NCBI RefSeq assembly: GCF_035594765.1
Contig: NC_085845.1
Location: 74,766,024 to 74,830,023 of the forward strand
Source: Anolis carolinensis
Lineage: Eukaryota
DNA length: 64,000 bases
Reading direction: 5' to 3'
Of this stretch, positions 45,001-48,000 are shown piece by piece. The position numbers are program-made. Each line of letters begins with the position of its first letter. Positions within the stretch are counted from its first letter, which is position 1.

Positions 45001-48000
45001 TTCATGCCATAAAACATCAGGCAACTCAGGACACCAAAACCCCTTAATTTAGACAAATGGAGAGCAATTACTTACTGCCCACCTGCAAGCTGTTGTCTTA
45101 CGCTTAAAGAAAAAAAAAGCCCCAAGGATGGAGTTAATTAGACTGAGGCTGGAAATTAAAGCTGGTGTCTCAATGCAGTTTCTCAGCACATGGATATGCT
45201 ATTGAGGGGGTTTCTTCCTAAATTTGCTAGTTTTGTTTGTCAGATTCTTTATCTCTGCTTAACTGCCTGCATCTCATAATGAAATCTGCAGTAGAAAAGT
45301 AGTGGCAGCAAAAACAGATCTAAAAGGAAGGCATGCAGTCATCTTTGCTTGAGCCCTGGATGAGACGGATCTTCATTATCTCTGGAGATGGTTTCAACGG
45401 TGTCCCCACCTCCAGTACACAGGAAGAGATTATAGCTTTATTACAGTGATTTAGCTGAGAGGAAGTTTATTTGAGGGGAGGCCATTTGTAATGAACAGGT
45501 AACATAAGGAACCTACTTCATATCTTCTGTTAGAACAGTAGTAACTAACCTTTTTTTGACCAGGAACCACTTGATCAGGGACCACTTTGACCAGGGACCA
45601 CTCTCCAACATTAGTACCAAAAGGATTACGAATCAGTTTTTGGTCAACATTAGATTCAGTTTGGTTATTTGGGGTGCTGATTCAGAAAATTGCATTGGAT
45701 AGACCACATCAGCTCTAGTTTATGATACAAAACATATGCCATCCATCCAGTAGTTGTTATCTGCTCACCCACAGAAAACCATATTTAATAATCTAGAGCT
45801 GATTTTCCGCACATGTCTCGCAGACCTTATTTTAGGTCTCACAGCCCACCAGTGGTTGGGAACCACTGTGTTAGAACATCCAGGCCATTTTGCTTCCACT
45901 GCCCACCTCCATCCCCATTCTGTGCTTTCTAGGCAGAGCATTTTTTGTATATATAATTTTTAAAGGCCATTAAGAATCAAGGAAGGTTTTACAGTATGCT
46001 TTATACAGATAAAAGTGATATCCAAGCATACTTACATTTCCTTTGACAACATAGTTTGAGTCATTCCTAATGTCTCTTGCAAGACCAAAGTCACAGATTT
46101 TTGTGATCCGTCCATGAGTGAGCAGGATGTTGCGTGCTGCCAAGTCTCTATGGATGCACTGAATGGAACAGACACAACAACAAAAGATATGCATACAATA
46201 TCAAAAAACAAAAATAACTGTTTATAACTCTTCTAGTGTGAAGGGCTGTCTAGATTGGAGGGGGGAAGTGACATGTAAATCAAATGTATCTTGGCGTTTC
46301 TCATTTAAAGCAGGGGCTAGTTTTATGTCCTGAGAACTATGGGGGGGGGGGGGGGACGGACCACTGAAAAGCAAAAGAAAAAAATGAAGTGGCCAAGAAT
46401 CAACTTCTTGGTCCTCAAAATAAGTATTTTGTGATGTGAAACAATACAGAGAGATGTTGTAACTAATTTGAAATATAAGGTTTTTTTTTAAGTTGTTATG
46501 GGGATTCTGCTATTCTTGGTTATTTGATTTTTCTAATGATGACTTATAATGACGATGTAAATCTGTAATCCACAGAATGACTGCTGGTCTTCCTAAAAAG
46601 ACTGGCTGGAATGGTACTTTGTCATAATATCCTTGTCAAAGTTCCAGTGACAGAGTAAAATAATTTATCAAGGAACCTACACCAGTTTCCTTCGAGAATT
46701 GATTGTTCCAAGGTAACTATGGGAAGAGTCTATATTTAATTAGTTTACTCCACGTTGCCATGTGTCACTTTCTATGATGATTTTATTTCATTTAATCTGT
46801 TTACCTTTCTCTCTAGAAATTGTACCTTATCCTTCTGAGACTGCCAATTTAGAACATGACTCACTGCATAGTTAATTAGAAGGAAGTTCCATGGAAATCA
46901 AACGAATATGCTTCTAAGTTATGCCTTTGGGATGGAATTTGTTGTTTGCTTTAGGGGTTCTTGTATCAAAGATGCTGCATAACTGGGTCCAAACATTCTG
47001 TATGTTTTGTATAAAGAAGATTAAGTTACCGGTAGGTGAAACCAACCAATGGTTGACTTCATAAATTAGAATCTTCATGAGCCAAAAATGAGGGCATAAT
47101 TTTTAAAAGTTCCTTAACAGCTAGATTTCTAAGCTTCTCCCAAAGTCAGACCAAAATGCATATGAGCCCTCTGATTCCACAATGTGACAATTACTGCCCC
47201 ACTCCAGATATATCAATCTCTTCCCTGAGCAGCCTAAATGGAAAGAGTGCGGATTTTCAAGTTGAAGAGCTTTGTTTATTCCCTGCACACGTTCTGCACT
47301 CTCTTCTTTCATAATTTCAGAGATTGGGGTGGTGGTGCATGAGACAGGGAGGAATTGCTGCCTCATACAATTTGGTCCAAGGAAGCATGTTTTAAAGAAT
47401 CAGAATGGCAGGCAAGATATAAGTTGACTCCTTTTAGAAAGGATTATCCAACAAGGAAAATATGCACCATTTAAAGTCACTCTGTATGAAAAGAAATCAT
47501 TATTTTCCATGTTTCTGACTTACATTTTTCGAGGACAGAAAGCTCATTCCCTTTGCCACCTGGTAAGAAAAACTTAATAGGTCTTCAATATCCAGAGCCA
47601 GTTCATCATCTTCTAAGATGGCAATGGTGACATCCTGATTAACAAACGATCCTAAGCAACAGATGTGGGAACAAGGCACAAATGGATTAATTATGGCTGT
47701 TTGGGAAGATAGAAGGCTTTCTATTAACAGAGCATGATACCAAATTAACACAGCAATGCTACTCAAACATATTACAGTACAGTCTCACTTATCCAAGCCT
47801 CGCTTATCCAAGCCTCTGGATTATCCAACGCATTTTTGTAGTCAATGTTTTCAATACATTGTGATATTTTGGTGCTAAATTCGTAAATACATTAATTACA
47901 ACATAACATTACTGCGTATTGAACTGCTTTTTCTGTCCAATTTGTTGTATAACATGATGTTTTGGTGCTTAATTTGTAAAATCATAACCTAATTTGATGT

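What the first reader, a model, noticed from the sequence alone, without database searches (positions are those of the whole stretch)
46036..46260. tr-kit-like truncated kinase ORF starting in intron 16
An ATG at 46194-46192 lies exactly 36 nt upstream of exon 17, in frame with no stop, encoding [12 protein letters not shown] before [10 protein letters not shown]. Mouse tr-kit, made from a cryptic intron-16 promoter in spermatids, also has 12 intron-encoded hydrophobic residues fused to exon 17. Splicing through exon 21 would give 200 aa lacking the ATP-binding lobe. The CCCVC cluster could be palmitoylated (inference). Minus-strand CCAAT (46258-54) and TATAAA (46226-21) lie just upstream. The Kozak context is weak and coincidence is possible.
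Basis: partly seen in the sequence, partly recalled or inferred. Interest (0 to 1): 0.7.

Follow-up and report, generated by a model that had tools for sequence, protein, structure and literature searches.

The report
Chance start codon in KIT intron 16
The short open reading frame running from the end of KIT intron 16 into exon 17 is really there and mirrors the layout of mouse tr-kit, but such frames are common by-products of ordinary splice-site sequence, and nothing testable here shows that it is used.

Summary
Every sequence fact in the finding is correct. A minus-strand ATG at 46194-46192 lies 36 nt before KIT exon 17 (46158-46036). It reads [12 protein letters not shown] in frame into [15 protein letters not shown] (46258-54) and TATAAA (46226-21) lie upstream. 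Counted exon by exon, the frame would give 200 aa through exon 21, with the Fyn-docking tyrosine at residue 161, as in mouse tr-kit.

The frame itself is ordinary:
- 5 of 14 KIT acceptor sites in this window have an in-frame ATG open into the exon.
- So do 23.6% of 1155 pseudo-acceptor frames and 18-41% of shuffles.
- The 12 codons are the pyrimidine tract between a branch-point-like TTGAT and the acceptor AG. That explains the hydrophobic, Cys-rich peptide.

Two things are rarer. The exact 12-codon offset has about 1-3% chance. The CCAAT/TATA pair has 0.19-1.9% chance. However, the TATA box predicts a start of transcription on the ATG itself, so the two cannot work together. The start context is weak.

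Conservation and expression could not be tested, because no vertebrate collection was on hand.

Best reading: ordinary intron 3' end with a chance frame (about 0.85). A genuine tr-kit-like isoform remains possible (about 0.08).

The parts
47524..47651 (-). KIT exon 16 (end of kinase insert, start of C-lobe), ending ...SSKN in phase 0
   Evidence: Read. PDB search matches chain 8dfm_A residues 742-783 (E 2.5e-15, 33 of 42 identical by my count).
46159..47523 (-). KIT intron 16, 1365 nt, GTAAGT...ATTCAG
   Evidence: GC 36.8%, CpG 9 against 45.8 expected, one TATAAA, two CCAAT, no full CRE; no second copy in the window.
46254..46258 (-). CCAAT motif, 32 nt upstream of the TATAAA
   Evidence: A motif match only.
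46221..46226 (-). TATAAA motif, 32 nt upstream of the ATG. The predicted start of transcription falls on the ATG.
   Evidence: The spacing argument rests on established knowledge of the TATA-to-start distance (recalled).
46200..46204 (-). TTGAT, the only match to the branch-point consensus yUnAy that I found by eye between 46217 and the acceptor. It contains the in-frame TGA (46203-46201) that closes the frame upstream.
   Evidence: Read. Stop shown. Nearest upstream AG is at 46219-46218, so 46217-46161 is free of AG.
46159..46194 (-). The 12 intronic codons ATG...CAG ([12 protein letters not shown]). They are the T/G-rich pyrimidine tract plus the acceptor AG (46160-46159).
   Evidence: 67% pyrimidine in the last 36 nt.
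46036..46158 (-). KIT exon 17 (123 nt, 41 aa: HRD catalytic loop, DFG, start of activation loop)
   Evidence: human KIT chains E 4.8e-23; chain 8dfm_A 784-824. (Pfam PK_Tyr_Ser-Thr positions 120-163 of 258).
40947..41058 (-). KIT exon 18 (112 nt)
   Evidence: (KIT chains E 8.1e-20; 8dfm_A 825-861). (Pfam positions 163-204).
40724..40823 (-). KIT exon 19 (100 nt)
   Evidence: (all 22 rows are KIT chains; 8dfm_A 864-894).
38436..38541 (-). KIT exon 20 (106 nt)
   Evidence: (8dfm_A 896-930). (Pfam positions 230-257).
37575..37700 (-). Coding part of KIT exon 21 (41 aa, IYSN...HEDV) plus TGA stop at 37577-37575
   Evidence: (the only three hits are full-length KIT chains; 8dfm_A 931-972, E 3.3e-06).

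Best explanation
Window 46159-46260 (minus strand) is the ordinary 3' end of KIT intron 16. It holds a branch-point-like TTGAT, a T/G-rich pyrimidine tract free of AG, and the acceptor CAG of exon 17. In the normal pre-mRNA it is spliced out.

Read in the exon's frame, a pyrimidine tract rarely holds a stop and gives F, C, V, I, S and L codons. An ATG within it yields a short hydrophobic 'extension' by accident. The CCAAT and TATAAA are chance motifs in AT-rich intron DNA.

Shown: the anatomy and the base rates. Inferred: that no transcript starts here.
For: 1. The exon model is intact and contiguous with KIT, exon by exon (Pfam positions), so the stretch has a sufficient role as acceptor region.
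2. Base rates. 5 of 14 KIT acceptors in the window (exons 12, 13, 14, 17, 20) have an in-frame ATG open into the exon. So do 273 of 1155 pseudo-acceptor frames (23.6%) and 18% or 41% of shuffles.
3. Hydrophobicity is generic. Mean Kyte-Doolittle score of the 12 intronic codons is 1.70 here. Exons 10 (2.25) and 13 (2.13) score higher. 8 of 42 exon-by-frame readings reach 1.7, against 4.3% of random 36-mers.
4. The ATG lies inside the AG-free zone 46217-46161, downstream of the TTGAT whose TGA closes the frame.
5. Weak start context tgtATGc.
6. The TATAAA lies 32 nt before the ATG. A start about 28-33 nt after the first T (established knowledge, recalled) gives a leader of 0-5 nt, too short for that AUG to be used well.
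7. Intron 16 shows no CpG enrichment (9 against 45.8 expected) and no full CRE.
8. [quoted passage not shown] The intron-16 start is therefore not shared even among mammals.
9. No paper in the library holds both 'tr-kit' and 'reptil*'.
Against: - The ATG sits at exactly the offset of the mouse tr-kit start, 12 codons. This follows from 12 + 190 = 202 aa and Tyr161. By chance that exact offset occurs in only 4 of 385 pseudo-acceptors and in 1.0% or 3.0% of shuffles.
- A CCAAT/TATAAA pair in canonical mutual spacing upstream of an ATG is rare: 5 of 2654 with tailored windows, 51 of 2652 with loose windows.
- It is the only TATAAA in the 1365-nt intron.
- Neither expression nor conservation was tested, so the chance reading rests on base rates, not on a direct negative.
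Confidence: 0.85

Rival explanations
1. A genuine tr-kit-like isoform. A transcript starts in the last 50-115 nt of intron 16, probably in spermatids. It runs unspliced into exon 17 and is spliced on through exon 21. It is translated from the ATG at 46194 into a 200-aa protein. That protein has 12 Cys-rich residues, possibly palmitoylated, followed by the C-lobe and tail. It has no ATP-binding lobe and would act as a scaffold that activates Src-family kinases through the tail tyrosine, as reported for mouse tr-kit.
For: - The layout equals that of the mouse. There are 12 intronic codons directly before exon 17, 188 shared residues (190 in mouse), and the docking Tyr at residue 161 in both.
- The exact offset is rare by chance, at 1-3%.
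- A clean leader is possible if transcription starts between 46273 and about 46210. The two upstream ATGs (46304, 46274) are out of frame and their short frames end at 46233.
Against: - The base rate of such frames is 24-41%.
- The start context is weak.
- If the ATG is used, the TATAAA cannot be the core promoter, so the promoter evidence falls away.
- Hydrophobicity and the Cys cluster follow from the TGT/TTG-rich tract.
- Humans are reported to use intron 15.
- No report for any non-mammal was found: 0 papers with 'tr-kit' and 'reptil*'. 13 papers hold 'tr-kit' and 'chicken' and 10 were listed; none concerns avian tr-kit by title, and in the one I checked (PMC3980740) 'chicken' refers to Src.
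- The role of tr-kit as a sperm factor is itself doubted (PMC4700098 passage).
Confidence: 0.08
2. The CCAAT/TATAAA pair is a real intronic core promoter, but the ATG at 46194 is not its start codon. Transcripts begin at about 46198-46193. They are either non-coding or translated from a later AUG.
For: - CCAAT and TATAAA are 32 nt apart, in canonical order and on the gene's strand. This is rare by chance (5 of 2654; 51 of 2652 with loose windows).
- Pyrimidine-purine steps at 46200/46199 and 46195/46194 could serve as start sites.
Against: - These are motif matches only, in AT-rich DNA that holds 77 TATAAA and 158 CCAAT over both strands of the window.
- All three ATGs inside exon 17 (46115, 46064, 46052) are out of frame. 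The first in-frame Met lies in exon 18, after the HRD and DFG motifs, so the product would be a stump.
- There is no CpG island and no CRE.
Confidence: 0.04
3. The motif cluster is part of an intronic enhancer or splicing-regulatory element for full-length KIT, and no transcript starts there.
For: No direct evidence. It is compatible with the position close to a highly conserved exon.
Against: No repeat, RNA family or structured element was detected. Nothing sets the stretch apart from other intron ends in the gene.
Confidence: 0.03

Closest known systems
Mouse tr-kit (truncated c-kit of spermatids; Rossi et al. 1992, Albanesi et al. 1996, as cited in PMC3871025, PMC2132866 and PMC3980740; I could not read the two primary papers)
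   Same: - The frame opens in intron 16 directly before exon 17.
- There are 12 hydrophobic intron-coded residues.
- It is followed by the whole C-terminal part of KIT (190 aa in mouse, 188 here).
- There is no ATP-binding lobe.
- The docking tyrosine is at residue 161 in both (and my arithmetic).
   Different: - For mouse there is a demonstrated intronic promoter (transgenic reporter), an mRNA and a 23-kD protein (PMC2132866 passage). Here there is only DNA.
- I could not compare the 12 residues or the intron letters of the two species.
- The context here is weak, and the only TATA box is placed so that it excludes the ATG.
Human tr-KIT
   Same: A truncated intracellular KIT lacking the ATP-binding lobe, reported in spermatids, spermatozoa and tumours (PMC3980740).
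   Different: It is reported to start in intron 15, not intron 16. The primary paper (PMC1615360) is not held.
Intron-initiated truncated VEGFR-1 isoforms (i19, i21, i28)
   Same: They are C-terminal kinase fragments made from intronic transcription starts, some in testis. Some carry a few intron-coded N-terminal residues, such as MNSDLLV for i21as (PMC3980740 and PMC6791376).
   Different: They were defined by RACE, with leaders of 129-135 nt for i19 and i28. They come from a different gene. Nothing comparable is known for this locus.
Ordinary vertebrate 3' splice region (branch point, pyrimidine tract, AG)
   Same: All four parts are present and the downstream exon is intact.
   Different: Nothing differs. 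The ATG is an incidental feature shared with 4 of the 13 other acceptors in the window.

Membership tests
tr-kit-type truncated KIT isoform | In-frame ATG in the intron before exon 17, open into the exon | tested here: met
   The same holds for 4 of the 13 other KIT acceptors in the window.
tr-kit-type truncated KIT isoform | About 12 intron-coded hydrophobic residues plus about 190 C-terminal KIT residues (202 aa in mouse) | tested here: met
   12 + 188 = 200 aa by arithmetic over exons verified singly.
tr-kit-type truncated KIT isoform | Lacks the ATP-binding lobe; keeps the phosphotransferase lobe, the tail and the docking Tyr (Y161 in mouse) | tested here: met
   - Pfam PK_Tyr_Ser-Thr positions 120-257 of 258 lie in exons 17-20. 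The glycine loop and VAVK lie in exon 12.
- The Tyr of IYSN falls at residue 161.
- This follows from the normal gene and is not independent evidence.
tr-kit-type truncated KIT isoform | Transcript initiating inside the intron from a spermatid-specific promoter | not testable with these tools
   No expression data were on hand. The CCAAT and TATAAA motifs are present, but the TATA predicts a start on the ATG.
tr-kit-type truncated KIT isoform | Start codon usable: adequate leader and context | tested here: inconclusive
   The context tgtATGc is weak. The leader would be 0-5 nt if the TATA box is used. A clean leader is possible only for starts between 46273 and about 46210.
tr-kit-type truncated KIT isoform | ATG and frame conserved in related species | not testable with these tools
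tr-kit-type truncated KIT isoform | Protein of about 23 kDa in spermatids or sperm | not testable with these tools
   This needs a western blot or proteomics.
Ordinary 3' splice region of KIT intron 16 | Acceptor AG followed by an exon contiguous with the previous exon in the protein | tested here: met
   Exon 16 maps to chain 8dfm_A 742-783 and exon 17 to 784-824. Both junctions are in phase 0.
Ordinary 3' splice region of KIT intron 16 | Pyrimidine-rich tract and AG-free zone upstream of the acceptor | tested here: met
   67% pyrimidine in the last 36 nt. The nearest upstream AG is at 46219-46218.
Ordinary 3' splice region of KIT intron 16 | Branch-point-like motif 20-50 nt upstream | tested here: met
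   TTGAT at 46204-46200, with the A 42 nt before the acceptor G (read). This is a motif match only, and the consensus is recalled.

The most novel reading that the evidence does not exclude
Squamate KIT makes a tr-kit-type protein from the same position as the mouse: an ATG 36 nt before exon 17. It would carry a Cys-rich, possibly palmitoylated N-terminus. This start would then either date back to the amniote ancestor or have arisen twice at the same spot. A kinase-dead KIT fragment that activates Src-family kinases would be an old part of sperm biology, not a rodent peculiarity.
Probability: 0.08. Interest if true: 0.6.

Novelty: not a real feature. Interest (0 to 1): 0.2.

Why it matters
If real, it would extend tr-kit from rodents and humans to reptiles. 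So far tr-kit is described only in mammals, and its role as a sperm factor is disputed. A reptile case would give a comparative handle on whether the truncated kinase matters for fertilisation.

As it stands, the main value is a caution. An in-frame ATG in the tail of an intron, a hydrophobic peptide and an open frame are what acceptor regions give by themselves at roughly one site in three to five. They should not be scored as evidence of an alternative protein without transcript or conservation data.

Tried and rejected
- **Whole-frame translation.** I then worked exon by exon.
- **Joined model.** The exons were not joined, searched or folded as one sequence. The 200-aa length and residue numbers are arithmetic only. 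No structure prediction or complex prediction was run for that reason.
- **Repeat origin.** I asked whether the CCAAT/TATA region came from a repeated element. blastn of intron 16 against the window gave only the self-match. Tandem Repeats Finder found only a 15-base G run at 46341-46355 and did not call the TGT-rich tract.
- **RNA families.** Rfam gave 0 matches in the whole window.
- **Spermatid promoter signs.** There is no TGACGTCA and no TGACG, one CGTCA at 46554, and no TGACCT or AGGTCA in intron 16. The motif choice is recalled.
- **Primary papers not held.** Paronetto 2004 (PMC1615360), Zayas 2008 (PMC3072793), Sette 2002 (PMC129085) and Albanesi 1996 (by DOI) are not held. I therefore could not see the mouse start of transcription, the mouse 12 residues or the human intron-15 data.
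- **Uninformative searches.** Two literature searches were badly framed, using an 'any two of six terms' rule. One phrase search found nothing.
- **LINE-like frames.** Pfam on four frames that looked LINE-like to me gave 0 families.
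Full report
**What is there**

I read the minus strand of 45900-46400 and translated 46203-46036. The ATG is at 46194-46192. Twelve codons give [12 protein letters not shown], and the last of them is the acceptor CAG. They run without a stop into an exon that starts at 46158 ([10 protein letters not shown]...) and ends at 46036, before GTAAGT. Only two codons upstream of the ATG the frame is closed by TGA at 46203-46201. CCAAT is at 46258-46254 and TATAAA at 46226-46221. 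The context is tgtATGc. Every letter and coordinate of the finding is correct.

**The gene**

The exon with its 12 intron-coded codons (53 aa) finds human KIT chains as best PDB matches (E 4.8e-23). Over the exon's 41 aa, 40 residues are identical by my count. FLT3 (1e-18), CSF1R (1e-17) and PDGFRA (5e-17) come behind.

I enumerated minus-strand stop-to-stop frames and read the junctions. This gives KIT exons 8 to 21 on the minus strand:

| Exon | Coordinates |
|---|---|
| 8 | 62682-62568 |
| 9 | 58471-58278 |
| 10 | 56953-56847 |
| 11 | 56731-56605 |
| 12 | 54662-54558 |
| 13 | 53474-53364 |
| 14 | from 50428 (donor ambiguous) |
| 15 | 48335-48247 |
| 16 | 47651-47524 |
| 17 | 46158-46036 |
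| 18 | 41058-40947 |
| 19 | 40823-40724 |
| 20 | 38541-38436 |
| 21 (coding) | 37700-37578, then TGA |

Pfam matched 6 of the 8 exon-bearing frames I sent to PK_Tyr_Ser-Thr in the expected order. Exon 12 covers model positions 4-39, exon 13 covers 42-72, exon 14 covers 71-101, exon 17 covers 120-163, exon 18 covers 163-204 and exon 20 covers 230-257 of 258. The frames of exons 11 and 19 gave nothing.

On the full-length KIT chain 8dfm_A the exons map as follows:

| Exon | 8dfm_A residues |
|---|---|
| 16 | 742-783 |
| 17 | 784-824 |
| 18 | 825-861 |
| 19 | 864-894 |
| 20 | 896-930 |
| 21 | 931-972 |

For exon 19, query residue 1 is unaligned. The model is contiguous apart from that residue and the two split codons. 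In one search the top row by summed score was a tandem EGFR construct, and KIT chains followed at 8.1e-20.

The length is arithmetic: 12+41+37+1+32+1+35+41 = 200 aa.

I do not take the window for human. By my count from the printed alignments, identity to the human chains is:
- 33 of 42 for exon 16;
- 40 of 41 for exon 17;
- 27 of 31 aligned for exon 19;
- 27 of 35 for exon 20;
- 24 of 41 for exon 21.

The two N runs (11265-11393 and 25939-26069) are far from the finding and were left alone.

**Comparison with mouse tr-kit, from papers**

- PMC3871025 (passage): the mouse frame starts in intron 16 and gives 12 hydrophobic residues followed by the last 190 residues.
- PMC3980740 (section 6): the protein has 202 aa. 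[quoted passage not shown]
- PMC2132866 (passages): the protein is 23 kD, has an intronic promoter shown in transgenic mice, and shares 190 C-terminal residues with c-kit. Y934 of mouse c-kit is Y161 of tr-kit.

In the window's frame the homologous Tyr (IYSN at the start of exon 21) is also residue 161 (12+41+37+1+32+1+35 = 159, then I, then Y). The layout is therefore the same as in the mouse, including the offset of 12 codons.

**Is the frame more than chance?**

I walked upstream in frame from each of the 14 KIT acceptors in the window. Five (exons 12, 13, 14, 17 and 20) have an in-frame ATG with no stop before the exon. The open stretch ranges from 5 to 45 codons and is 14 here.

As a wider null I took every YAG on either strand preceded by at least 70% pyrimidine over 20 nt. 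That gave 385 sites, or 1155 frames over three phases.
- 273 frames (23.6%) have such an ATG.
- 135 frames (11.7%) have one within 15 codons.

Shuffling the last 57 nt before the CAG 20,000 times gives 18% (mononucleotide) and 41% (dinucleotide). So the open in-frame ATG is expected at about one acceptor in three to five.

The exact offset of 12 codons is rarer: 4 of 385 pseudo-acceptors (1.0%), and 1.0% or 3.0% of shuffles. This is the one feature that points beyond chance. It would count only for descent from a common ancestor. The reported use of intron 15 in humans makes that unlikely a priori.

**Why the peptide is hydrophobic and Cys-rich**

The 12 codons are the pyrimidine tract itself (ATC TTT TGT TGT TGT GTC TGT TCC ATT CAG).

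| Reading | Kyte-Doolittle score |
|---|---|
| This peptide | 1.70 |
| Last 12 intronic codons of exon 10, in its own frame | 2.25 |
| Last 12 intronic codons of exon 13, in its own frame | 2.13 |
| Mean over 42 exon-by-frame readings | 1.05 (8 of 42 reach 1.7) |
| Random 36-mers of the window | -0.04 (4.3% reach 1.7) |

The 'hydrophobic' likeness to mouse tr-kit is therefore largely a property of acceptor regions. The CCCVC cluster comes from TGT repeats. Palmitoylation is an inference with no test here.

**Splicing anatomy**

Between 46217 and 46161 there is no AG; the nearest is at 46219-46218. By eye, the only match I found to the branch-point consensus yUnAy (recalled) in that zone is TTGAT at 46204-46200. 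Its GA forms part of the TGA that closes the frame. The ATG thus sits between the likely branch point and the acceptor.

**The promoter motifs**

The window holds 77 TATAAA and 158 CCAAT over both strands.

| Condition | ATGs meeting it |
|---|---|
| TATAAA 20-45 nt upstream | 33 of 2654 (1.2%) |
| CCAAT 46-110 nt upstream | 180 of 2654 (6.8%) |
| Both of the above | 5 of 2654 (0.19%) |
| TATAWA within 100 nt and CCAAT within 200 nt | 51 of 2652 (1.9%) |

The first three windows were drawn after seeing the case. The pair is uncommon, and it is the only TATAAA in the 1365-nt intron.

A TATA box directs initiation about 28-33 nt downstream of its first T (established knowledge, recalled). That is 46198-46193 here, on the ATG. 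The leader would be 0-5 nt, and AUGs that close to the cap are largely skipped (established knowledge, recalled).
- If the TATA is used, the ATG is not the start. The next ATGs (46115, 46064 and 46052) are all out of frame, and exon 17 holds no in-frame Met.
- If the ATG is used, transcription must start further upstream and the TATA is not the core promoter. A clean leader then needs a start between 46273 and about 46210, because out-of-frame ATGs lie at 46304 and 46274.

Intron 16 has GC of 36.8% and 9 CpG against 45.8 expected. It has no full CRE and a single CGTCA half-site at 46554. It has no other copy in the window, no tandem repeat apart from a 15-base homopolymer run and no Rfam match.

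**Literature on non-mammals**

- 74 papers hold 'tr-kit'. The 40 listed are all on mammals by title.
- 13 papers hold 'tr-kit' and 'chicken', of which 10 were listed. None concerns avian tr-kit by title. In the one I checked, 'chicken' refers to Src.
- No paper holds 'tr-kit' and 'reptil*'.
- Reviews doubt that tr-kit is the physiological sperm factor (PMC4700098 and PMC7140179 passages).

**Verdict**

The best explanation is the ordinary 3' end of KIT intron 16 with a chance in-frame ATG (confidence 0.85). A genuine tr-kit-like isoform keeps about 0.08, carried almost wholly by the exact 12-codon match with the mouse. A real intronic promoter that does not use this ATG keeps about 0.04, and another regulatory role about 0.03.

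Two tests would decide: transcript starts, and conservation of the ATG and frame in related species.

Noticed in passing
window 37119-37448, 42321-42646, 47773-48100, 58573-58898: A repeat of about 330 nt is present in four copies, 82-91% identical. Three are in one orientation and the copy at 58.6-58.9 kb is reversed. They lie in the intron upstream of exon 9, in introns 15 and 17, and just downstream of the KIT stop codon. It looks like an interspersed (SINE-like) element. It has no Rfam match.
   Followed up: partly
window 58278-58258 (minus strand), end of KIT exon 9: After the donor G|GTAACA the intron continues AAC AGC AAA AAT. It would read GNSK, but no second GT donor follows. In mammals an alternative donor here makes the GNNK+/- isoforms (recalled). 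This species appears to lack that second donor.
   Followed up: no
window 50295-50280 (minus strand), end of KIT exon 14: Two candidate donors lie 3 nt apart (AT|GTAGTA and TA|GTAAGG), both in phase 2. The exon 14/15 junction and the exact kinase-insert sequence stay ambiguous. This does not affect the finding.
   Followed up: no
window 57015-56970 (minus strand), upstream of KIT exon 10: A long (CT)n run is followed by more than 30 T, forming an unusually long pyrimidine tract before the exon 10 acceptor. The exon's frame stays open for 26 codons upstream, without an ATG.
   Followed up: no
window 46341-46355: A homopolymer run of 15 G on the plus strand (C on the gene's strand) lies in intron 16, about 150 nt upstream of the ATG.
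   Followed up: partly
window 57695-57928 and 12703-12903 (minus strand); also 12334-12648 against 57563-57877: These frames looked to me like the C-terminal part of a LINE (CR1-type) reverse transcriptase (recalled resemblance). The two regions are 81% identical over 320 nt. Pfam found no family for the two frames, so the label is unconfirmed.
   Followed up: partly
window 11265-11393 and 25939-26069: Two runs of N (129 and 131 bases) lie downstream of KIT.
   Followed up: no
window 1-37500: No further kinase exon or other obvious coding exon turned up in the motif scan of minus-strand frames downstream of KIT. The plus strand of this half was not examined for genes.
   Followed up: no
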